Positions 1 to 25,185 of a stretch of DNA of 33,339 nucleotides are shown here, piece by piece (position 1 is the stretch's first letter; every line of letters starts with the position of its first letter). The position numbers and the translations under genes are program-made. The stretch lies in IMG/VR virus record IMGVR_UViG_2671180294_000014; one strand, written 5' to 3'. This DNA comes from a virus (taxonomy: Duplodnaviria > Heunggongvirae > Uroviricota > Caudoviricetes). The notes below the pieces were generated by a model. That model was not told where the DNA came from. It saw nothing but the letters and a program-made list of their open reading frames with translations, and did not search any database.

Positions 1-981
1 TTATAACGTCACTCCGCCTTTTAGTGGATTCAGAGCGACGGCATTTTGCAGATAGTCAGGCGCAAGGTGCGCATAGGCCATCGTCTGCTGAATGCTCGCA
101 TGTCCCAGAATCTGTTGCAGTGCGATTATATTGCCCCCATTCATCATGAAATGGCTTGCGAATGTATGCCGCAGGATGTGGGTTGCCTGATTGGGTGGTA
201 TATCAGGTTTCACTCTGCGTAAAATCCCGCAAAATTTCTCATAATCAACTTTGAATAATTTGGCGCTGGCCTCCTCTTTAACTTTTTTCTCCAGTTCCTC
301 AGAAATCGGCACGGTTCGCTTTTTACCGTTTTTGGTTTTCAGGAAGGTAACCCTGCAATTTGTAATCTGTGCTGGTTTTAGCGTGGCAACTTTCGTCCAT
401 CTTCCTCCAGTGCTCAGACATAAAAGCGCGACAAGTAAGTCATCACCAGCCAAAACATTTAACAGTTTTTCGATTTCTGCTTTTTCCAGGAACGTCATTT
501 CAGGGTTGGCCTCCGCCAGTGGCGGCAGTCCGTGAATTGGGTGTTGCCCGGAAAATTCATCCAATTGAATTAATTTTGTGAACATGCCGGATAATCTGTA
601 CATGTCACGGTTTATCGTTGCGGCACTGATACCATCACGTAGTCGCATGGAACGATAATCCATCAAAGCCCTTTTGCTCATCCTGCTCACTGGTATATCA
701 CCTATGCCGCTGATGGTTTTGAGTAGATGATTAAACTCTTTTGTTCCATGCTCGTGGTTTTGCCCGTGATATTTCCACCAGATGTCCAGCAACTCACTCA
801 AAGTCCGGCGGTCTGCTCGCTGGCCTCCCCATTCTTTCTGACTGGCATTGGCGATTGTGTATCGCTCAAATGCTAGTGCTTCAGCTTTTCTTTCGAATTT
901 CCTGCGGATGCGTTTTCCGTCGCGACCGCGAGGTCTAATGTCCACTTCATAGCGACCATCATCGAGCTTCTTAATTGCCAT
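1..981 (-). CDS. int: P2-family tyrosine integrase
   Basis: ORF 1..1011(-). Product resembles P2 Int as I recall it (N-term MAIKKLDDGRYEVDIRP; C-terminal HxLRHTFAS...Y catalytic region). Start set at ATG 979-981 by that homology; upstream alternative start at 1011. Stop codon is the first 3 nt of the window, so attL lies outside it. Confidence 0.9.
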   Translation of the reverse strand: MAIKKLDDGRYEVDIRPRGRDGKRIRRKFERKAEALAFERYTIANASQKEWGGQRADRRTLSELLDIWWKYHGQNHEHGTKEFNHLLKTISGIGDIPVSRMSKRALMDYRSMRLRDGISAATINRDMYRLSGMFTKLIQLDEFSGQHPIHGLPPLAEANPEMTFLEKAEIEKLLNVLAGDDLLVALLCLSTGGRWTKVATLKPAQITNCRVTFLKTKNGKKRTVPISEELEKKVKEEASAKLFKVDYEKFCGILRRVKPDIPPNQATHILRHTFASHFMMNGGNIIALQQILGHASIQQTMAYAHLAPDYLQNAVALNPLKGGVTL

Positions 982-1050
982 AAGAAAGCCCTCCGGCGCT
1001 GTATTCACCATCTTGGTAGCAAATGGTGAAAATGTAATCTTTATATAGAG

Positions 1051-3237: not shown

Positions 3238-3509
3238 GTATTCGTATTGAAATTGGCGAACGTTATGTCGTTACCAGTGACAGCTTCCAGTTTATTCTCC
3301 ACGAGAAAAAGAGAGCGGAAAGCGGTAAAAACGCCGGTCAGGAATGGCTGGCGGTGGTTGGTTATTACCCGAAATTAAGCCAGCTCGTTTCCGGCCTGAT
3401 GCATCACGATATTCTGACCGGAAGCGCAAAGTCTTTTGCTGATTTAAACGCGCAGGTTGAGCAACTCAGCAAGCGTTGTTCAGAGGCTTTTGGCTCATAT
3501 GGCCGTTAA
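3234..3509 (+). CDS. hypothetical early protein (P2 orf83 position)
   Basis: 91-aa ORF; ATG overlaps the upstream stop; 3' end overlaps the start of A. Confidence 0.55.
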   Translation: MSIRIEIGERYVVTSDSFQFILHEKKRAESGKNAGQEWLAVVGYYPKLSQLVSGLMHHDILTGSAKSFADLNAQVEQLSKRCSEAFGSYGR

Positions 3510-5796
3510 AGCCTCCGGGCGTTTTGTCCCTCCGTCAGCATTTGCTGCAGGCACCGGTAAGGCGTTTACCGGTGCTTATGCATGGAACGCGCCACGCGAG
3601 GCTGTCGGGCGCGAAAGACCCCTTACACGTGACGAGATGCGTCAGGTGCAAGGTGTTTTATCCACGATTAACCGCCTGCCTTACTTTTTGCGCTCGCTGT
3701 TTACGTCACGCTATGACTACATCCGGCGCAATAAAAGCCCGGTGCACGGGTTTTATTTCCTCACATCCACTTTTCAGCGTCGTTTATGGCCGCGCATTGA
3801 GCGTGTGAATCAGCGCCATGAAATGAACACCGACGCGTCGATGCTGTTTCTGGCTGAGCGTGACCACTATGCGCGCCTGCCGGGAATGAATGACAAGGAG
3901 CTGAAAAAGTTTGCCGCCCGTATCTCATCGCAGCTTTTCATGATGTATGAGGAACTCAGCGATGCCTGGGTGGATGCGCATGGCGAAAAAGAATCGCTGT
4001 TTACGGATGAGGCGCAGGCTCACCTCTATGGTCATGTTGCTGGCGCTGCACGTGCTTTCAATATTTCCCCTCTCTACTGGAAAAAATACCGTAAAGGACA
4101 GATGACCACGAGGCAGGCATATTCTGCCATTGCCCGTCTGTTTAACGATGAGTGGTGGATTAGTCAGCTTAAAGGCCAGCGTATGCGCTGGCATGAGGCG
4201 TTACTGATTGCTGTCGGGGAGGTCAATAAAGACCGTTCTCCTTATGCCAGTAAACATGCCATTCGTGATGTGCGTGCACGCCGCCAGGCAAATCTGGAAT
4301 TTCTTAAATCGTGTGATCTCGAAAACAGGGAAACAGGCGAGCGCATCGACCTTATCAGTAAGGTGATGGGCAGTATTTCTAATCCTGAAATTCGCCGGAT
4401 GGAGCTGATGAACACCATTGCCGGTATTGAGCGTTACGCCGCCGCAGAAGGTGATGTGGGGATGTTTATCACGCTGACCGCGCCGTCAAAGTATCACCCG
4501 ACACGTCAGGTTGGAAAAGGCGAAAGTAAAACCGTCCAGCTAAATCACGGCTGGAACGATGAGGCATTTAATCCAAAGGATGCGCAGCGTTATCTCTGCC
4601 GTATCTGGAGCCTGATGCGCACGGCATTCAAGGATAATGATTTACAGGTCTACGGTTTGCGAGTCGTCGAGCCACACCACGACGGAACGCCGCACTGGCA
4701 TATGATGCTTTTTTGTAATCCACGCCAGCGTAACCAGATTATCGAAATCATGCGTCGCTACGCGCTCAAAGAGGATGGCGACGAAAGAGGAGCTGCGCGA
4801 AACCGTTTTCAGGCAAAACATCTTAATCGGGGCGGTGCTGCGGGGTATATCGCGAAATACATCTCAAAAAATATCGACGGCTATGCACTGGATGGGCAGC
4901 TCGATAACGATAGCGGCAGACCGCTGAAAGATACTGCCGCGGCTGTTACCGCATGGGCGTCAACGTGGCGCATTCCGCAATTTAAAACGGTTGGCCTGCC
5001 GACAATGGGGGCTTACCGTGAACTACGCAAATTGCCTCGCGGCGTCAGCATTGCTGATGAGTTTGACGAGCGCGTCGAGGCTGCACGCGCCGCCGCAGAC
5101 AGTGGTGATTTTGCGCTGTATATCAGCGCGCAGGGTGGGGCAAATGTCCCGCGCGATTGTCAGACTGTCAGGGTCGCCCGTAGTCCGTCGGATGAAGTTA
5201 ACGAGTACGAGGAAGAAGTCGAGAGAGTGGTCGGCATTTACGCGCCGCATCTCGGCGCGCGTCATATTCATATCACCAGAACGACGGACTGGCGCATTGT
5301 TCCGAAAGTGCCGGTCGTTGAGCCTTTGACTTTAAAAAGCGGCATCGCCGCGCCTCGGAGTCCTGTCAATAACTGTGGAAAGCTCACTGGTGGTGATACT
5401 TCGTTACCGGCTCCCACACCTTCTGAGCACGCCGCAGCAGTGCTTAATCTGGTAGATGACGGTGTTATCGAATGGAATGACCCGGAGGTTGTGAGGGCGC
5501 TCAGAGGTGCATTAAAACACGGACTGAGAAGACCAAACCGTCAGCAAAGAAACGGAAGCCCGTTAAAACCGCATGAAATAGCGCCATCGGCCAGACTGAC
5601 CCGGTCGGAACGAATGCAAATTACCCGTATCCGCGTTGACCTTGCTCAGAACGGTATCAGGCCGCAGCGATGGGAGCTTGAGGTGCTGGCGCGTGGGGCA
5701 ACCGTAAATTATGACGGGAAAAAATTCACTTACCCGCTCGCTGATGAGTGGTCGGGATTCTCAACAGTATTAGAGTCAAACTCAGTGAAGCGTTAA
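3499..5796 (+). CDS. A: replication initiation protein A (rolling-circle initiator)
   Basis: ORF 3457..5796; start set at ATG 3499 (MAVKASGRFVPP...), matching my recollection of P2 gpA over its whole length (765 aa here). Confidence 0.93.
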   Translation: MAVKASGRFVPPSAFAAGTGKAFTGAYAWNAPREAVGRERPLTRDEMRQVQGVLSTINRLPYFLRSLFTSRYDYIRRNKSPVHGFYFLTSTFQRRLWPRIERVNQRHEMNTDASMLFLAERDHYARLPGMNDKELKKFAARISSQLFMMYEELSDAWVDAHGEKESLFTDEAQAHLYGHVAGAARAFNISPLYWKKYRKGQMTTRQAYSAIARLFNDEWWISQLKGQRMRWHEALLIAVGEVNKDRSPYASKHAIRDVRARRQANLEFLKSCDLENRETGERIDLISKVMGSISNPEIRRMELMNTIAGIERYAAAEGDVGMFITLTAPSKYHPTRQVGKGESKTVQLNHGWNDEAFNPKDAQRYLCRIWSLMRTAFKDNDLQVYGLRVVEPHHDGTPHWHMMLFCNPRQRNQIIEIMRRYALKEDGDERGAARNRFQAKHLNRGGAAGYIAKYISKNIDGYALDGQLDNDSGRPLKDTAAAVTAWASTWRIPQFKTVGLPTMGAYRELRKLPRGVSIADEFDERVEAARAAADSGDFALYISAQGGANVPRDCQTVRVARSPSDEVNEYEEEVERVVGIYAPHLGARHIHITRTTDWRIVPKVPVVEPLTLKSGIAAPRSPVNNCGKLTGGDTSLPAPTPSEHAAAVLNLVDDGVIEWNDPEVVRALRGALKHGLRRPNRQQRNGSPLKPHEIAPSARLTRSERMQITRIRVDLAQNGIRPQRWELEVLARGATVNYDGKKFTYPLADEWSGFSTVLESNSVKR

Positions 5797-5882
5797 CTCA
5801 ATAAATATGAGTTTATAAGTTAGGCCTCGAGATTTTGTAGAAAGGGATGTATACTGAGTATCGTATAGATTTGGAGTGAGTG

Positions 5883-6905
5883 ATGACTGTAAAGGTGATA
5901 GACCTTTTTTGTGGTGCTGGCGGATTAACTCATGGTTTGCAGCTTGCGGGGCTTGATGTCGTTGCAGGCATTGACCTTGAGGGGGAATGTAGGTTTCCCT
6001 ATGAAAGAAACAATAAATCTAAGTTTATTGAGCAAGATATCGCTAAAGTAACAAAAGAGGAACTGCTGAGGCTTTATGGTGATGCGTCTGTAAAAGTATT
6101 GGCAGGATGCGCACCTTGCCAACCTTTTTCAAAATATACTCAAGGAAAAGATAAGGCTGATGATAAAAAATGGCCTCTTCTTTATGAGTTCGAACGTTTA
6201 ATTCGCGAAGTATCTCCAGAAATCGTAACAATGGAGAACGTTCCTGATGTAACTAAACATAAAGTTTATAATGATTTTTATAATTCATTGTTAAAGTTGG
6301 GCTATTATGTTTGGGCGTCTAAGATTGATTGTGTCGAATATGGAATCCCACAAAACCGTTCCCGTCATGTATTGTTGGCCTCAAAATTGGGGGCGATTGA
6401 GTTAGTAAAACGTGACGATGTTATTTTGAAAACAGTTAGAGATGCAATAGGAAATCTTCCTCCATTAGAAGATGGCCAAACAGATCCAAATGATATATTA
6501 CATAGAGCCAGTAAATTAAATCCGATTAATAAAAAAAGAATTATACACTCTGTTCCTGGTGGTACATGGAAGGACTGGCCGAAAGAGTTGGTTGCCGCTT
6601 GTCATATGAAATCCAGCGGTAAAGGGTATGCTAGTGTATATGGGCGCATGTCTTGGGATAAGCCAAGTCCAACAATTACAACTCTTTGTTATGGTTTCGG
6701 GAATGGGCGTTTTGGACATCCAGAACAGCATAGAGCGATTTCTCTTAGAGAGGCTGCTTTATTGCAAACTTTCCCGATGGATTATATTTTTGTAGAAGAC
6801 AAAAACAAGTTTGTTATAAGAAGTATTGGGAAAATGATAGGTAATGCTGTTCCTGTGGAACTAGGAAAAGCAATTGGGCAATCAATCAAGAACCATTTAG
6901 AATGA
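5883..6905 (+). CDS. DNA (cytosine-5)-methyltransferase, no recognisable cognate restriction endonuclease
   Basis: ORF 5880..6905; ATG 5883 with GGAG 6 nt upstream. Canonical C5-MTase motifs seen directly: I DLFCGAGG, IV PCQPFS (catalytic Cys), VI ENV, VIII QNRSRHV, X GNAVPV. AT-rich compared with the phage backbone. Confidence 0.9.
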   Translation: MTVKVIDLFCGAGGLTHGLQLAGLDVVAGIDLEGECRFPYERNNKSKFIEQDIAKVTKEELLRLYGDASVKVLAGCAPCQPFSKYTQGKDKADDKKWPLLYEFERLIREVSPEIVTMENVPDVTKHKVYNDFYNSLLKLGYYVWASKIDCVEYGIPQNRSRHVLLASKLGAIELVKRDDVILKTVRDAIGNLPPLEDGQTDPNDILHRASKLNPINKKRIIHSVPGGTWKDWPKELVAACHMKSSGKGYASVYGRMSWDKPSPTITTLCYGFGNGRFGHPEQHRAISLREAALLQTFPMDYIFVEDKNKFVIRSIGKMIGNAVPVELGKAIGQSIKNHLE

Positions 6906-6934: not shown

Positions 6935-7615
6935 CTATTGTTCTAAATATTCATTATTATTTATATAGTGCTCTATATTATTCACGATAGCATCAAGATA
7001 GGCGATTACTTCTAATGAAATATTCTCTAAGTCCTGATATGAAACATTTTTTCCAATCTCAGCAAATGATACATTGCCATGAGATAAATCATTACGATGT
7101 TGTTTAACAGTGGCTAATTTTTCACCATGTTTAGTGTGAGTGTAATCGGAATGTGTAGAAAAACCATATATTTTCGATTTTTCTTTGATTTCCTCTCTAT
7201 CAATATTTCCTGAGAATATTTTCTTTTTGTTGAACGTGCCATAAGATATACCGCAAGATATACCTTTGGTAAGGTGATTAACTAAACTTTCAACATTTAC
7301 AGATTCATTTTTTAATCTTTTTAATATTTCTGACCTGAGATTTTTCCTGAGTTTGTCAAATTCTACGTTTCTATCATAAATAGTCTCATGAATAAGGCAG
7401 ATAGCTTCTCTCATTGTTGATTCAATGAGGTTATATAACAGTATATATACTGCTCCCTTTAGAGTTTTTCGTGATTGAGCAGTAATGGAGAACTTATGTT
7501 CTTTATCATCAGCTGATATCAGTTCTGCACCGGCATACTCAATAAATTTCAAAAGATCCAAATAGGCCAAGATCTCTCCTGACCTTTCGTCAAAATCCTC
7601 ACGAAAACGATCCAT
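6935..7615 (-). CDS. hypothetical protein with HEPN-like Rx4H motif; downstream gene of the two-gene cargo operon
   Basis: 226-aa ORF. ATG at 7615 lies 1 nt after the upstream gene's TAA (TAAcATG); GAGGA RBS. C-terminal region has KQHRNDLSHGN, matching the HEPN Rx4-6H signature. Strongly AT-rich. Confidence 0.65.
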   Translation of the reverse strand: MDRFREDFDERSGEILAYLDLLKFIEYAGAELISADDKEHKFSITAQSRKTLKGAVYILLYNLIESTMREAICLIHETIYDRNVEFDKLRKNLRSEILKRLKNESVNVESLVNHLTKGISCGISYGTFNKKKIFSGNIDREEIKEKSKIYGFSTHSDYTHTKHGEKLATVKQHRNDLSHGNVSFAEIGKNVSYQDLENISLEVIAYLDAIVNNIEHYINNNEYLEQ

Positions 7616-7616
7616 G

Positions 7617-8759
7617 TTAATCCTCTAATAATTTATCCCGAACATATTCAATTCGTTCAATTACCTTCACGCGACTATTAGCTCCGTCGGAAGTGGTCAA
7701 TCGTTTGAATTCTTCTGAGCTTAGCCAATCTAAGTTCTTGGGAACAAGGTCAGGGACTTCACGTAATGCAAGTGCTGCGCCAACAGCGAGAGATTCGAAT
7801 CTAACTCGAGGTGTAGATTTTGCAGTAATAGTTTTCTTGAATCCTGCTGGGAAATAGTTTTCAACAAAAGATAGAACATTAGCAAACTCTTGTTTCATTG
7901 AGTTTTGTTTAGTTTCGTCTATATCTCGATTTTCTGACATATAGTCATTTAGAAAATCCCGTACGGAATGATCAAAGTTCTTGTACTTATCTACGTAGGC
8001 AAAGAATCTTAATGTAAATTCTAACCGTTCATCTCGTTTTTCTTTAGTCTGAGATAAAGGTGCTAATTCTTTAAATTTAGGTATTGTTGAGCATGGCTTA
8101 ATAACCTGTGTATATAAATTTGTTGAACCAAGTTCTGATCCTTTACGGACTTCCATATCTTTCAATATATCGCTGCCAGAGTTAATACGCTCAAAAAGAT
8201 CTCTACGGGTTTCTTCATTGCATTTAGAACTCAATTCTATAACGCGGACAGGAATTCTCATGAAACGACGTTGACGTGATAATGGTAAATCTTGGAATTT
8301 GAAACCATTAAGGACGTCTAAAGATTTCAGGTCTTGTAAAACTAATTCATTTTGGATAAAAGCGTGTATAGTCCTAACTCGTTGTGAGCCATCAACAATC
8401 TCAATTCGCCCATCTAAATCGGGATCTTCGGAGAGAACATCTGCTATAAATATATATGGTATAGGAAAACCCAAAATCAAAGACTCTATCAATTTTGATT
8501 GTCTTTTTTCACTCCAAACAAAATCCCTTTGATAATCAGGAACAAAGAGTTCGTTAGTATCATCCTCTAATCCGTTATGATACTTATTAACTAATAACTC
8601 AACGGTAAATTCTTTGGTCTCAAAATCCACATCCTTTTGCTCAGCACGAATTTGCTCTTCAGCGTTTTGCTTTATCACCTCTAGCTGAGCAAGCAACTCT
8701 GCTCTTTTCTTGGCATTATCTTCATTTTCTAGTTGAGATTTTAAATCAATAATGTCCAT
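7617..8759 (-). CDS. DUF262 (ParB/Srx-like, GmrS-type) domain protein; upstream gene of the two-gene cargo operon
   Basis: ORF 7617..8777 (TTG start); ATG at 8759 preferred (AAGGGAA 6 nt upstream). Shows DUF262 hallmark motifs: PDYQRDFVW and IEIVDGSQR (DGQQR-type). N-terminal coiled-coil-like segment. No HNH/DUF1524 motifs found in the C-terminal half. Confidence 0.7.
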   Translation of the reverse strand: MDIIDLKSQLENEDNAKKRAELLAQLEVIKQNAEEQIRAEQKDVDFETKEFTVELLVNKYHNGLEDDTNELFVPDYQRDFVWSEKRQSKLIESLILGFPIPYIFIADVLSEDPDLDGRIEIVDGSQRVRTIHAFIQNELVLQDLKSLDVLNGFKFQDLPLSRQRRFMRIPVRVIELSSKCNEETRRDLFERINSGSDILKDMEVRKGSELGSTNLYTQVIKPCSTIPKFKELAPLSQTKEKRDERLEFTLRFFAYVDKYKNFDHSVRDFLNDYMSENRDIDETKQNSMKQEFANVLSFVENYFPAGFKKTITAKSTPRVRFESLAVGAALALREVPDLVPKNLDWLSSEEFKRLTTSDGANSRVKVIERIEYVRDKLLED

Positions 8760-20802: not shown

Positions 20803-23121
20803 ATGAGCACAAAATTCAGAACCGTTATCACCACTGCCGGTGCAGCAAAGCTGGCAGCGGCAACCGCACCGGGAGGGCGGAAGGTCAACATTACCACGAT
20901 GGCCGTCGGGGATGGCGGTGGTAAATTGCCTGTCCCGGATGCCGGACAGACCGGGCTTATCCACGAAGTCTGGCGACATACGCTGAACAAAATCAGCCAG
21001 GACAAACGAAACAGTAATTATATTATCGCAGAGCTGGTTATTCCGCCGGAGGTGGGCGGTTTCTGGATGCGTGAGCTTGGCCTGTACGATGATGCGGGAA
21101 CGTTAATTGCCGTGGCGAACATGGCCGAAAGTTATAAGCCAGCTCTTGCCGAAGGCTCAGGGCGTTCGCAGACCTGTCGCATGGTCATCATCGTCAGCAG
21201 TGTGGCCTCGGTGGAGCTGACCATTGACACCACAACGGTGATGGCGACACAGGATTACGTTGATGACAAAATTGCAGAGCACGAACAGTCACGACGTCAC
21301 CCGGACGCCTCGCTGACCGCAAAAGGTTTTACTCAGTTAAGCAGTGCGACCAACAGCACGTCTGAAACACTGGCCGCAACGCCGAAAGCGGTAAAGGCCG
21401 CCTATGACCTTGCTAACGGGAAATATACCGCACAGGACGCTACCACAGCTCGAAAAGGTCTTGTCCAGCTCAGTAGTGCCACCAACAGCACGTCTGAAAC
21501 GCTTGCGGCAACGCCAAAGGCGGTTAAGACAGCGTATGACCTTGCTAACGGGAAATACACTGCACAGGACGCCACTACAGCGCGAAAAGGTCTTGTCCAG
21601 CTCAGTAGCGCCACCAACAGCGATTCTGAAACGCTTGCGGCAACACCAAAGGCGGTTAAGACAGCGTATGACCTTGCTAACGGGAAATACACTGCACAGG
21701 ATGCCACCACAGCGCGAAAAGGTCTTGTCCAGCTAAGTAGTGCCATCAACAGCGATTCTGAAACGCTGGCCGCAACGCCAAAAGCAGTGAAGTCTGCCTA
21801 TGACAATGCTGAAAAACGTCTTCAGAAAGATCAGAACGGTGCGGATATTCCGGGAAAGGATACCTTCACGAAAAATATCGGTGCCTGTCGTGCTTATAGC
21901 GGCGCTTTGAGCACTGAAGCCGGAAACTGGACAACCGCTCAGTTTATTGAATGGCTGGATTCCCGTGGTGCATTTAATCATCCGTACTGGATGTGCAAAG
22001 GCTCCTGGTCATATGCAAATAACAAAATCATTACGGATACCGGATGTGGTGATATCCACCTGGCTGGTTGTGTCGTCGAGGTCATGGGAACTAAATCTGC
22101 AATCACTATCCGAGTGACCACGCCAACAACATCAAGCGGTGGCGGTACAACCAGCGCGCAATTCACTTACATAAATCATGGGGACGGCTACTCCCCCGGC
22201 TGGCGTCGTGACTGGAATCGTCAGGGCGACTCAATGACCGGAACGATTAATCAGGATGGCGGAAGCCAGAATGCCTATATGTCTACGGCCTTATGTTCAG
22301 GCACCAGAGGCGGCAAAAAATATCTCAGAAAGTTTCGTGGTGGAGAAGGAGATACTATCTGGCATGAAACAGTTCAGGGCGGGGTAATTCGCTGGGCGAC
22401 AGGAAACAATGACGCTCAGGAAGAATTATCACTCAGCTCCGCTTATGGTCTCCGTTCAAGAGGTGAAATTACATCACTCAGTGCTAATGGTCTGCGCATT
22501 GCTTATGGCAATTATGGATTCTTTATCAGGAATGATGGCGGCAGCACATATTTAATGCTGACGGCCTCTGGCGATAAATTTGGGACATGGAACGGCTTAA
22601 GACCGCTGACTATCAATAACGCCAATGGCGGAGTGTCAATGGGGCATGGCCTGAGTGTTACAGGTGATATTGTCTCAAGTACCAAAGTACGTGCCGGTAG
22701 CGGGAAAAAGTTCACGGTCAGCAGCAGCAATACATCCACGAAGGAAGCCGCATTCAATTTGTGGGGAAACTCAAGTCGTCCTGTGGTGGCTGAATTAGGT
22801 GATGATGCAGGCTGGCATTTTTACAGTCAGAGAAATACAGATAACAGCATCACTTTTGCTGTTAACGGGCAGGTATCACCATCTAACTATGGCAACTTTG
22901 ATTCACGCTATGTCCGGGATATCCGGCTTGGTGGTGCTGCCACATACAAACCTGCGAACAATGGTATGACATGGACACATCAGGCACCGTCCGGGTGTGT
23001 ATATTCCGGCATTATTGTTCAGGATACCGGCTCAAACTCTGCCGATAACATTGGTGGCGTATATTACAGACCGGTGCAGAAATACATTAACGGGACTTGG
23101 TATAACGTGGCACAGGTATAA
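20803..23121 (+). CDS. H: tail fibre protein H with expanded internal tandem repeats
   Basis: 772 aa. The N-terminal ~170 aa follow the conserved tail-fibre pattern; then repeats of ...LSSATNSTSETLAATPKAVK.AYDLANGKYTAQDATTARKGLVQ...; the C-terminal part is lower in GC and likely the receptor-binding region. Confidence 0.9.
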   Translation: MSTKFRTVITTAGAAKLAAATAPGGRKVNITTMAVGDGGGKLPVPDAGQTGLIHEVWRHTLNKISQDKRNSNYIIAELVIPPEVGGFWMRELGLYDDAGTLIAVANMAESYKPALAEGSGRSQTCRMVIIVSSVASVELTIDTTTVMATQDYVDDKIAEHEQSRRHPDASLTAKGFTQLSSATNSTSETLAATPKAVKAAYDLANGKYTAQDATTARKGLVQLSSATNSTSETLAATPKAVKTAYDLANGKYTAQDATTARKGLVQLSSATNSDSETLAATPKAVKTAYDLANGKYTAQDATTARKGLVQLSSAINSDSETLAATPKAVKSAYDNAEKRLQKDQNGADIPGKDTFTKNIGACRAYSGALSTEAGNWTTAQFIEWLDSRGAFNHPYWMCKGSWSYANNKIITDTGCGDIHLAGCVVEVMGTKSAITIRVTTPTTSSGGGTTSAQFTYINHGDGYSPGWRRDWNRQGDSMTGTINQDGGSQNAYMSTALCSGTRGGKKYLRKFRGGEGDTIWHETVQGGVIRWATGNNDAQEELSLSSAYGLRSRGEITSLSANGLRIAYGNYGFFIRNDGGSTYLMLTASGDKFGTWNGLRPLTINNANGGVSMGHGLSVTGDIVSSTKVRAGSGKKFTVSSSNTSTKEAAFNLWGNSSRPVVAELGDDAGWHFYSQRNTDNSITFAVNGQVSPSNYGNFDSRYVRDIRLGGAATYKPANNGMTWTHQAPSGCVYSGIIVQDTGSNSADNIGGVYYRPVQKYINGTWYNVAQV
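21325..21805 (+). repeat. about 3.6 tandem copies of a 132-bp (44-codon) in-frame repeat inside H
   Basis: The string caacagc(a/g)(c/a)(g/t)tctgaaac recurs at 21351, 21483, 21615 and 21747, exactly 132 bp apart; the translated units are near-identical. Confidence 0.9.
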
Positions 23122-23124
23122 TTT

Positions 23125-23652
23125 ATGCAGCATTTGATAAATATAACGGCAGGTAATCCAAAAACGGTTGAACAATATCAATTGACAAAGGACTTTGATG
23201 TTGTCTGGTTTTTTTCAGAAGATGGTAAGAACTGGTACGAAGAACAAAAGTATTTTGCTGATGACACGATAAAAATAGCGTACGACAAAGATAATATTAT
23301 CCGCTATGTGGAAAAGGATGTGACAGCTATCAGACCGGATGGATTAAGTGTTGTTGAAGTGCCGGATATTACTGCTAACCGACGGGCGGACATTTCAGGG
23401 AACTGGATGTTTAAGGACTGTACAGTGATTAAACGAATTTATACGGCAGAGGAATTGCAGCAGCAGGCAGAAAATCGGAAAGCCAGACTTCTTGCAGATG
23501 CTGAATCCGTGATTTTGCCGCTGGAGCGCGCTGTCAGGCTGAATATGGCAACAGATGAGGAGCGCAGTCGACTGGAGGCATGGGAACGCTACAGTGTTCT
23601 GGTCAGTCGTGTGGATCCTGCAAATCCTGAATGGCCGGAAATGCCGCAATAA
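23125..23652 (+). CDS. G: tail fibre assembly protein (chaperone)
   Basis: 175 aa directly after H; position and size match P2 gpG. Confidence 0.85.
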
Positions 23653-23766: not shown

Positions 23767-25185
23767 CTACATCGGGCTCTTATATGGGGAATGAGAGTTT
23801 TTGAAACGCGGTTCTTCATGCTTCGGACTGTAAATTCTTGCATGATTATCTATCACAACTTTACTTCCAAGAATATCTCGAGCTTCTCCTAACGACCACA
23901 CAGTAGAAAGATCATTAGTCAAATTTCGATAGAGAGCACGAAACCCCTTGGGTTTTTTAAGATCATATAAGAAATCAGGAACTTTAACTTTAAAATTAAA
24001 GGTCGGTAGTTTCGGAAGGGAATTAATAGCCGCAACAGTATTGTATACATGTACAAGCTTAGTTACAGGTACACCTTGTCTAGTCTTGAGCCCATACTTA
24101 GTTCGAATATAATCTGATTCTTTCGATACTTCAGTAAGCAATGCTCTTACTGACTTATTAGCTTGAGGCAATTCATTTTCATCAAACAAGCGCTTTATTT
24201 CTCGCATTTTCTCACGGGCCCTTACAAATTCGTTGTTGTCCCTTATGTTATAAGCAGCTTCAACAATACAACTTGGATCACCAGTTTCTTTTGCGAGCCA
24301 TGCCGAAAATAAAGGAAGCGAAGTTGCTGTTGCTACAGCTTTACCACCAGAATGAATATCAATGAGATCATGACTTAACGAAGTGGAAAAGTTTTCTACA
24401 ATATGTTTAGCATAGTCAAAACCATACTGACAGTTTTGGCTTAAATATGTCTGTTGATACGCCTGACGTAATGGATATAAAAAAGTATCTGCTTGAAGGT
24501 ACTTAGCTGTGAGAGAATAAAATACTGCCCGATTAGCCAGCCATACAAGCGAAGCCACGAATGCTTTGATTGCATCTGATGCTTCACCAGCAGATGTGCC
24601 ATCCCCCCATTTTGCTCCGGGAACTTTGTACCCCTTGCGAATAGGGTTGCCAAATCGATCGAGAAGTTCAACATCGCCATTTGTTCTATTACCAGACTCA
24701 GCAGCATCACGCAGTTCTGAAAAAATGGCAGCAGCAATGTTACCATATTTTTCAAACTCCTTACCTCCATCAGATAAGTTCTTCAGTGTTAGATGATAAA
24801 CACTTGAACTAATGTCCCATGTACATATGATATGTGTCTGAAGAAGTTCAATTAGTTTTTTAAAATCGTCATTAACAAATGTTCCACCACGAATTTTAGG
24901 TTTCAATGCATCAGATATTTTTTTTGCTTCACTTTCAATTTCATCCAACCCATATTGTGCTTTATCAAGAAATAATATCTCTCTGAAACTTGAAATCCTA
25001 CTCCCACGGTACTCTGGAATATAATCATCAACCGCGATAACGTGATCATAGAACAAAATAGACTGTATATAGTTCTCAAATGCTATTATGTCTGTATCTA
25101 CTGAGTCCTTCGATCTTGTTTTTACTTTCCCCTCGATTCTTTGGACTGCAGTTAGAGTTGAATTATCAATCAGTGCGTATGTCAT
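23767..25185 (-). CDS. hypothetical 472-aa protein, AT-rich cargo at the P2 Z/fun position
   Basis: Long clean ORF on the strand opposite to the flanking late genes. ATG at 25185 with AAGGA RBS. Markedly AT-rich. No Walker, HNH, PD-(D/E)xK or MTase motifs recognised; the only weak feature is a C-terminal RIYSPKH (Rx5H). Confidence 0.7.
   Translation of the reverse strand: MTYALIDNSTLTAVQRIEGKVKTRSKDSVDTDIIAFENYIQSILFYDHVIAVDDYIPEYRGSRISSFREILFLDKAQYGLDEIESEAKKISDALKPKIRGGTFVNDDFKKLIELLQTHIICTWDISSSVYHLTLKNLSDGGKEFEKYGNIAAAIFSELRDAAESGNRTNGDVELLDRFGNPIRKGYKVPGAKWGDGTSAGEASDAIKAFVASLVWLANRAVFYSLTAKYLQADTFLYPLRQAYQQTYLSQNCQYGFDYAKHIVENFSTSLSHDLIDIHSGGKAVATATSLPLFSAWLAKETGDPSCIVEAAYNIRDNNEFVRAREKMREIKRLFDENELPQANKSVRALLTEVSKESDYIRTKYGLKTRQGVPVTKLVHVYNTVAAINSLPKLPTFNFKVKVPDFLYDLKKPKGFRALYRNLTNDLSTVWSLGEARDILGSKVVIDNHARIYSPKHEEPRFKNSHSPYKSPM

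What the first reader, a model, noticed from the sequence alone, without database searches (positions are those of the whole stretch)
21325..21805. Tandem 44-residue repeat expansion in tail fibre H
Seen in sequence: about 3.6 in-frame copies of a 132-bp unit (SSATNS(T/D)SETLAATPKAVK.AYDLANGKYTAQDATTARKGLVQL) with very high identity between copies. The protein is 772 aa, whereas I recall P2 gpH as about 669 aa. Repeat number could change fibre shaft length and is prone to recombinational expansion or contraction and to assembly collapse. The ORF-track entries 21402..21749(-) and 21404..21736(+) are artefacts of this repeat.
Basis: seen in the sequence. Interest (0 to 1): 0.45.

Follow-up and report, generated by a model that had tools for sequence, protein, structure and literature searches.

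The report
Ordinary tail-fibre repeat array in prophage
The tail-fibre gene of this P2-like prophage really does contain four tandem copies of a 44-residue module, but this is the well-known "phage tail fibre repeat" at the copy number most common among its relatives, so it is ordinary.

Summary
A 132-bp in-frame tandem array lies at 21322-21804 inside the 772-aa tail-fibre gene H (20803-23121, +): three full units plus a truncated fourth. Each unit is one copy of Pfam PF03406 (Phage_fiber_2), four hits in total. The array sits just after the P2-type tail-collar domain.

P2 gpH (669 aa) has two cores, so the window has two more. "Expansion" is misleading, however. Among 76 related viral-contig H genes the counts are 2 (14), 3 (4), 4 (47) and 5 (11), always spaced 44 aa apart. 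Of 44 genes with the same distal region, 42 have four copies.

Units are conserved by position between phages (92-96% nt) and diverged within an array (72-88% nt; dS up to about 1, dN 0.03-0.08). The array is therefore old and stable, not a recent or unstable expansion.

The exact 772-aa protein recurs in hundreds of assemblies. A plaque-forming phage, vB_YpM_46, has the same four-copy layout, so assembly collapse is very unlikely.

The likely role is a modular trimeric shaft spacer that also serves as a conserved junction for swapping distal receptor-binding parts. That role is inferred, not shown. This feature is already known and of low interest.

The parts
20803..23121 (+). Tail-fibre gene H of a P2-like (Peduovirus) prophage, 772 aa
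   Evidence: ORF. Pfam PF12571 + 4x PF03406 + PF21446. 96% aa identity to P2 gpH over aa 1-251. Synteny V-W-J-I-H-G. 93.8% aa identity over the full length to Yersinia phage vB_YpM_46 H.
20803..21255 (+). N-terminal tail-collar / baseplate-attachment domain (aa 1-151)
   Evidence: PF12571 Phage_tail_fib, E 2.8e-58, profile positions 1-150 of 150.
21322..21453 (+). Repeat unit 1 (aa 174-217)
   Evidence: 99-nt core is 98% identical to P2 unit 1.
21454..21585 (+). Repeat unit 2 (aa 218-261)
   Evidence: 83.3% nt identity to unit 1 and 94.7% to unit 3. dS 0.86 to unit 1.
21586..21717 (+). Repeat unit 3 (aa 262-305)
   Evidence: dS 0.15 and dN 0.026 to unit 2. Longest shared exact run with unit 2 is 56 nt.
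21718..21804 (+). Repeat unit 4, truncated core (aa 306-334), the last PF03406 hit. It forms the junction to the distal part.
   Evidence: Downstream sequence SAYDNAEKRLQKDQNGADIP aligns to phage Mu fibre S residues ~140-166.
21805..23118 (+). Distal, receptor-binding half of H. It is a mosaic of Mu S'-like (aa 334-487), gp34-trimerisation-like (aa 540-604) and Mu S / P2 H-like C-terminal (aa 544-771) segments.
   Evidence: PDB sequence search: 8ju3 E 3.7e-90, 5yvq E 8e-60, 4uxe E 6.9e-25. PF21446. 57% identity to P2 H 526-669.
23125..23652 (+). Tail-fibre assembly chaperone G
   Evidence: PF02413 Caudo_TAP, E 2.8e-33. phrog_136, E 1e-78.
21402..21749 (-). Spurious nested ORF (115 aa) produced by the repeat
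   Evidence: Periodic translation. No Pfam match.
21404..21736 (+). Spurious nested ORF (110 aa, +1 frame) produced by the repeat
   Evidence: Periodic translation. No Pfam match.

Best explanation
The feature is a four-module array of the known phage tail-fibre repeat (Pfam PF03406, 'Pf2'). It lies in gene H of a P2-like prophage, directly after the baseplate-attachment domain and directly before the exchangeable receptor-binding half.

Shown: it is a genuine, in-frame, protein-conserved array. Its copy number is the commonest among relatives and it is inherited stably with position-specific units. Relatives with 2, 3, 4 and 5 modules exist, and cultured infective phages have 2, 3 or 4.

Inferred: in the homotrimeric fibre each 44-residue module contributes one structural segment of the proximal shaft, so module number sets shaft length or reach. 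The highly conserved module sequence, shared with Mu, lambdoid Stf and other fibres, is also the homologous junction at which distal receptor-binding segments are exchanged between phages. Rare in-register unequal crossovers add or remove whole modules.
For: Identity of the repeat:
- PF03406 scores 257 bits against a cut-off of 22, with four stretches.
- A single 44-aa unit hits 1584 representative clusters, with up to 11-12 near-identical copies in lambdoid Stf-type proteins. 44 aa is the dominant spacing.

Copy number in relatives:
- In 76 related viral-contig H genes the counts are 2/3/4/5 = 14/4/47/11, always at 44-aa spacing.
- 42 of 44 genes with the same post-repeat sequence have four copies.
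- Cultured phages: P2 has 2, P37 and fiAA91-ss have 3, vB_YpM_46 has 4.

Age and stability:
- Same-position units in different arrays are 92-96% nt identical. Different positions within one array are 72-88% identical.
- dN is 0.03-0.08 against dS of 0.15-1.16 among units 1-3.

Not an assembly artefact:
- The exact protein occurs in 752 collection blocks, 14 of them with contigs over 1 Mb.
- Complete E. coli genomes carry colinear 2319-nt matches.
- The array plus flanks is 99.9% identical and colinear in NZ_CP063349.1, and covered at >=80% in 438 of 5426 complete genomes.

Junction role:
- The match to P2 H runs to about aa 251 at 96% identity; by direct sequence comparison the two diverge right after the PKAVK core of unit 2.
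- Post-repeat sequences fall into a few discrete classes.
- The last unit plus linker matches Mu S.

Contraction event:
- The 3-copy array of L080 equals the 4-copy array of L045 minus one 132-nt register, with 3 mismatches in 363 nt and the breakpoint inside unit 1.
Against: - No structure covers the module. The AlphaFold2 monomer model was unusable (pLDDT 37.9), and the literature read here says its structure and function are unknown (PMC3368898; PMC8078820).
- The shaft-spacer role and any effect of copy number on fibre length or host range are untested.
- The sample of relatives is biased to the 80 N-terminal domains closest to the window, so the 'modal' count applies to that neighbourhood only.
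- Copy number correlates with distal class (P2-type always 2; Mu-S-like linker 3-5). It may therefore be hitch-hiking with the distal module rather than selected in itself.
Confidence: 0.8

Rival explanations
1. Assembly artefact: the true copy number in this genome differs, because short reads collapsed or expanded the array.
For: The repeat period (132 bp) is near short-read length. Many database H proteins are 'partial'.
Against: - Units differ at 7-27 of 132 nt. Only units 2 and 3 share an exact run longer than 23 nt (56 nt).
- An identical 772-aa protein occurs in 752 collection blocks, including 14 with contigs over 1 Mb.
- Ten loci including the window share the identical unit string.
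- Complete E. coli genomes carry colinear four-copy genes.
- Most 'partial' proteins end well downstream of the array.
Confidence: 0.02
2. Recent, unstable VNTR-like expansion: a contingency locus whose copy number changes frequently by slippage or unequal crossing-over to vary fibre length.
For: Copy number ranges from 2 to 5 among relatives. One clear in-register contraction was found. Units 2 and 3 are 94.7% identical.
Against: - There is no concerted evolution. Within-array identities equal between-array off-diagonal identities, while same-position units are 92-96% identical across 40 distinct arrays.
- dS between units 1 and 2/3 is 0.86-1.16.
- 42 of 44 genes of the same distal class have exactly four copies.
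Confidence: 0.05
3. The modules are kept mainly as conserved recombination linkers that let distal receptor-binding cassettes be swapped among unrelated phages. Their number has little structural consequence.
For: - The constant/variable boundary lies at the last core.
- The same unit, at 84-94% aa identity, occurs in lambdoid Stf-type fibres and in Mu S.
- Unit DNA occurs in 2373 of 5426 complete E. coli genomes, in several fibre gene types and on plasmids.
- A second junction motif, NGADIP, precedes further divergence.
Against: - Strong purifying selection on every unit at the protein level (dN/dS about 0.03-0.2) argues for a structural role for each module.
- High synonymous divergence reduces DNA homology, which a pure recombination linker would need.
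- This rival is not exclusive of the main explanation.
Confidence: 0.25
4. The modules are ligand-binding (lectin-like or secondary-receptor) domains, so more copies give higher avidity.
For: None directly. Repeats in some fibres do bind carbohydrates (general knowledge).
Against: - The position is proximal, next to the baseplate-attachment domain and far from the distal tip.
- The sequence is nearly invariant across phages with different distal receptor-binding parts and hosts.
Confidence: 0.03

Closest known systems
Pfam PF03406 Phage_fiber_2 ('phage tail fibre repeat', Pf2), first noted in lambda Stf
   Same: Four significant hits to the family model. About 44-aa tandem periodicity. Location in a tail-fibre protein (PMC3368898).
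   Different: Nothing of substance. Copy number (4) is in the middle of the family's range, which runs from 2 to at least 12 in comparable proteins.
Bacteriophage P2 gpH (NP_046775, 669 aa)
   Same: 96% identical over aa 1-251, including the collar domain, unit 1 and the core of unit 2. Same gene order J-I-H-G. C-terminal ~150 aa are 57% identical.
   Different: P2 has two cores, the window four. P2's second core is only 75-77% nt identical to window units 2-4 (68% to unit 1) and leads into a different distal shaft (TVMDETNKKAPLNSPALTG...).
Yersinia phage vB_YpM_46 H (Peduovirus YPM46, 764 aa)
   Same: 93.8% aa identity over the full length. Four cores at the same positions (174, 218, 262, 306). 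It is a cultured, plaque-forming phage.
   Different: 8 aa shorter, with a divergent extreme C-terminus (the DNA match ends at nt 2129 of 2319).
Phage Mu tail fibres S (gp49, PDB 5yvq/9ki1) and S' (gp52, PDB 8ju3)
   Same: One PF03406-like unit plus the linker ...KGLVQL(T/S)SA..SETLAAT.KAVK...NGADIP. The window's aa 334-487 match S' 177-332 and aa 544-771 match S 260-503.
   Different: Mu has a different N-terminal attachment domain and a single unit. The window concatenates S'-like and S-like segments in one protein.
Lambdoid side-tail-fibre (Stf/StfR-type) proteins with 11-12 units
   Same: Units 84% identical to the window's. Tandem arrangement.
   Different: Different N-terminal domain. 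Units alternate at 44 and 56 aa spacing (a 100-aa super-repeat). Far more copies.

Membership tests
Pfam PF03406 Phage_fiber_2 repeat | Sequence match to the family profile above the curated gathering score | tested here: met
   257.3 bits against a cut-off of 22, E 3.7e-78, four stretches, best at aa 170-210 covering profile positions 1-41 of 42.
Pfam PF03406 Phage_fiber_2 repeat | Tandem units of about 40-44 residues within a phage tail-fibre protein | tested here: met
   Cores at aa 174, 218, 262 and 306. Host protein has a PF12571 collar domain and sits between baseplate gene I and chaperone G.
Pfam PF03406 Phage_fiber_2 repeat | Forms part of a trimeric fibre shaft (structural role) | not testable with these tools
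   Only monomer prediction is available, and it gave pLDDT 37.9. The only PDB chains whose sequences contain the motif are Mu S and S', and whether that segment is resolved could not be determined.
Peduovirus (P2-like) tail fibre gpH | N-terminal domain homologous to P2 gpH | tested here: met
   96% identity over aa 1-251.
Peduovirus (P2-like) tail fibre gpH | Conserved late-operon synteny V-W-J-I-H-G followed by sheath gene FI | tested here: met
   Gene calls around the identical protein. Window ORF map. P2 reference.
Peduovirus (P2-like) tail fibre gpH | Distal half homologous to P2 gpH | tested here: not met
   Only the last ~150 aa align, at 57%. The middle is Mu S'/S-like. Such mosaicism is typical of the family, e.g. 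L-413C as described in PMC7460101.
Hypervariable tandem repeat (VNTR / contingency locus) | Near-identical DNA units homogenised within an array (concerted evolution) | tested here: not met
   Within-array identity is 72-88%, against 92-96% for the same position in other arrays. dS up to 1.16.
Hypervariable tandem repeat (VNTR / contingency locus) | Frequent copy-number change among close relatives | tested here: not met
   42 of 44 genes with the same distal class have four units. Ten loci carry the identical unit string.

The most novel reading that the evidence does not exclude
Module number may be an adaptive 'reach' setting matched to the distal receptor-binding cassette and to the host's surface layer. 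P2-type distal parts always carry 2 modules, whereas Mu-S-like ones carry 3-5. The strong synonymous divergence between units may be selected to protect the setting from recombinational loss.
Probability: 0.15. Interest if true: 0.35.

Novelty: already known. Interest (0 to 1): 0.1.

Why it matters
It matters little as a discovery. The repeat family is curated in Pfam, the exact protein is present in hundreds of public assemblies, and cultured phages carry the same layout.

It has modest practical value. It marks the natural seam between the constant attachment part and the exchangeable receptor-binding part of P2-type fibres, which is useful for fibre engineering. It also shows that annotation pipelines will call spurious nested ORFs inside such arrays.

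The structural role of the PF03406 module remains undetermined, but this locus offers no special handle on that question.

Tried and rejected
1. My first regular expression for counting cores matched nothing. I replaced it with a looser pattern and then with an HMM built from the window's four cores.

2. I predicted the structure of aa 145-366 with AlphaFold2 (monomer, 22-row alignment). Mean pLDDT was 37.9 and pTM 0.21. The model is unusable, so I ran no fold search. Its per-unit strand-strand-helix pattern is not reliable.

3. I suspected that locus L058, unit string (2,71), showed a crossover joining a P2-type two-copy gene to a multi-copy array. This was rejected: L058 is a four-copy gene with a CAG>TAG nonsense codon in unit 3. 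The '2-copy' class therefore contains 13 true two-copy genes, not 14.

4. I tried to read Haggard-Ljungquist et al. 1992 (PMC206541) for the original description of H; it is not held. What I say about it rests on its title, as cited in PMC12143355.

5. I looked for a solved structure covering the module. Only the Mu S and S' chains contain the motif by sequence. The Mu cryo-EM paper states only that 'the N-terminus' of gp49 was modelled, so coverage is unknown.

6. I searched for a P2 gpH cryo-EM paper and found none relevant.

7. The Pfam TPR_20 hit (E 0.0021, below cut-off) was dismissed as noise from the periodic sequence.

Full report
**Observation**

Tandem Repeats Finder reports a single strong array at 21343-21804: period 132, 3.5 copies, 89% matches, no indels, score 686. 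An independent repeat search finds three in-register 226-nt copies spaced exactly 132 nt apart, starting at 21321. The array is in frame inside a 772-aa ORF, 20803..23121 on the + strand.

In protein register the units begin at residues 174, 218, 262 and 306, which is nt 21322, 21454, 21586 and 21718. The first three are complete 44-residue units. The fourth keeps the first 29 residues, up to ...PKAVKSAYD, and then runs into different sequence.

Two ORFs nested in other frames, 21402..21749(-) and 21404..21736(+), have periodic translations and no Pfam match. They are artefacts of a unit that happens to lack stop codons in those frames.

**What the gene is**

The window is a P2-like prophage. 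It carries an integrase at 1..1011(-) and replication gene A at 3457..5796. The late genes around the ORF run V, W, J, I, H, G and then the sheath gene.

The 772-aa protein has three Pfam features:
- the P2-type tail-collar N-terminal domain (PF12571, aa 1-151, E 2.8e-58);
- four copies of PF03406 Phage_fiber_2, 'phage tail fibre repeat' (257 bits against a cut-off of 22);
- a gp34-type trimerisation domain (PF21446, aa 540-604).

The next gene, 23125..23652, is a tail-fibre assembly chaperone (PF02413). The repeat is therefore not a new element. It is the curated Pf2 repeat first noticed in lambda Stf (PMC3368898).

**Comparison with P2**

The window protein and P2 gpH are 96% identical over residues 1-251. 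By direct sequence comparison they part immediately after the PKAVK core of unit 2. P2 continues TVMDETNKKAPLNSPALTG..., whereas the window continues with more repeat units.

P2 has two cores and the window four. Of the 103-aa length difference, 88 aa are two extra modules. The rest comes from an entirely different distal half. Window residues 334-487 match the Mu S' fibre (PDB 8ju3, E 3.7e-90). Residues 544-771 match Mu S (5yvq, E 8e-60). Only the last ~150 residues resemble P2 H, at 57%.

At the DNA level P2's second core is only 75-77% identical to window units 2-4, and 68% to unit 1. The two genes are alternative mosaic alleles. The window gene is not P2's gene with a recent expansion.

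**Copy number in relatives**

I fetched 80 viral contigs whose H N-terminal domain is at least 98% identical to the window's. I counted cores with an HMM built from the window's units. Among 76 uninterrupted genes the counts are:
- 2 cores: 14 genes;
- 3 cores: 4 genes;
- 4 cores: 47 genes;
- 5 cores: 11 genes.

Spacing is always exactly 44 aa. One of the '2' genes, L058, is really a four-copy gene with a nonsense codon.

Copy number tracks the distal class. P2-type distal sequence always comes with two cores. The Mu-S-like linker SAYDNAEKRLQKDQNGADIP comes with three to five. Among 44 genes whose post-repeat sequence equals the window's, 42 have four cores, one has three and one has five.

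Cultured plaque-forming phages cover most of the range:
- P2: 2 cores;
- P37: 3 cores, annotated 'tail fiber repeat protein';
- fiAA91-ss: 3 cores;
- vB_YpM_46: 4 cores, and 93.8% identical to the window protein end to end.

Beyond P2-like phages, a single 44-aa unit finds 1584 representative protein clusters. These include lambdoid Stf-type fibres with 11-12 units at 84% identity, and 44 aa is the dominant spacing. In complete E. coli genomes, DNA similar to the array region (including 150 nt of flank on each side) occurs in 2373 of 5426 genomes, in several kinds of fibre gene and on plasmids. The array with its flanks is at least 80% covered in 438 genomes.

**Age and stability**

The protein units are nearly identical, but the DNA is not. 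Nucleotide identity is 83.3% between units 1 and 2, 79.5% between 1 and 3, and 94.7% between 2 and 3. Nei-Gojobori estimates give dS of 0.86, 1.16 and 0.15 for those pairs, with dN of 0.03-0.08. Each unit is therefore under strong purifying selection, and most of the duplication is ancient.

Across 40 distinct four-copy arrays, units at the same position in different phages are 92-96% identical. Units at different positions in the same array are 72-88% identical, which is the same as the off-diagonal values between arrays. There is thus no concerted evolution. The four positions are orthologous and have been inherited as a block.

Copy-number change does occur, but rarely. The three-copy array of L080 equals the four-copy array of L045 with one 132-nt register removed. 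There are only 3 mismatches in 363 nt and the breakpoint lies inside unit 1, the signature of an in-register unequal crossover.

**Assembly artefact?**

Very unlikely, for four reasons:
- Only units 2 and 3 share an exact run longer than 23 nt, namely 56 nt. Ordinary k-mer sizes and reads can resolve the array.
- The exact 772-aa protein is indexed in 752 blocks of the assembly collection. Of these, 481 have contigs of 50-200 kb and 14 have contigs over 1 Mb.
- Ten loci share the identical unit string.
- At least the 40 best-matching complete E. coli genomes (174 cover at least 80% of the gene) carry colinear 2319-nt genes at about 97% identity. One has the array plus flanks at 99.9%.

The closest named proteins are from Shigella sonnei and E. 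coli. I did not establish the source organism of the window.

**How it probably works**

Shown: the array lies between the baseplate-attachment domain and the exchangeable distal half. Every module is protein-conserved. Module number varies in whole units among viable phages.

Inferred: in the homotrimeric fibre each module forms one segment of the proximal shaft, so module number sets length or reach. The module, together with the following NGADIP linker, is also the conserved seam at which distal receptor-binding cassettes are exchanged. That would explain why the constant/variable boundary falls at the last core, and why Mu, lambdoid and P2-like fibres share the unit.

I could not test the structural part. 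The monomer AlphaFold2 model was unusable (pLDDT 37.9). The papers I read state that the structure and function of Pf2 are unknown (PMC3368898) or poorly modelled (PMC8078820). The Mu cryo-EM study modelled only 'the N-terminus' of the fibre (PMC11915804).

**Verdict**

It overstates novelty and instability. This is a known repeat family at its commonest copy number in this phage group, old and stably inherited, and not an assembly artefact. Novelty: already known. Interest: low.

Noticed in passing
window 23767-25185 (-): A 472-aa ORF lies between tail-fibre chaperone G and sheath gene FI, the position of Z/fun in P2. It has no Pfam match and no PADLOC match. Its only hit is a full-length match to phrog_13435, of unknown function (E 1e-293). 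It is a candidate lysogenic-conversion or defence cargo gene. In several relatives carrying the identical H gene this position is disrupted or replaced by IS elements (L004-L006, L008).
   Followed up: partly
window 6935-8777 (-): Two adjacent minus-strand genes sit in the region after replication gene A and before portal gene Q; from memory, this is the P2 tin/old cargo site. One is a HEPN_MAE_28990 protein (6935-7615, PF18737, E 6e-29). The other is a GmrSD_N/DUF262 protein (7617-8777, PF03235, E 8e-26; PADLOC NsnA 1.7e-54 and PD-T4-2_A 2.5e-35). Together they look like a two-gene anti-phage defence system.
   Followed up: partly
window 5880-6905 (+): A C-5 cytosine DNA methyltransferase (PF00145, E 3.4e-58; PADLOC DrmMII / type II MTase models) lies immediately after gene A. 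It is convergent with the HEPN/DUF262 pair, and no cognate restriction enzyme is evident.
   Followed up: partly
window 21805-23118 (+): The distal half of H concatenates a segment like the Mu G(-) fibre S' (aa 334-487, against 8ju3 177-332) with a segment like the Mu G(+) fibre S C-terminus (aa 544-771, against 5yvq 260-503). In Mu these are alternative fibres chosen by G-segment inversion. Here pieces of both lie in one polypeptide.
   Followed up: partly
L058 3500-4295 and proteins P0106, P0120: Some prophage copies of this H gene are truncated inside the array. L058 has a CAG>TAG nonsense codon in unit 3. A 310-aa version, 100% identical to the window up to its end, is recorded for Shigella sonnei 53G with 57 member sequences. 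The cause of that truncation was not examined.
   Followed up: partly
proteins P0121-P0124, P0126: Lambdoid Stf-type fibres carry the same unit in a 100-aa super-repeat of alternating 44- and 56-aa spacing. The extra segment is GKAPSSHTHPWNQITGVPTASLTA. Copy number reaches 11-12.
   Followed up: no
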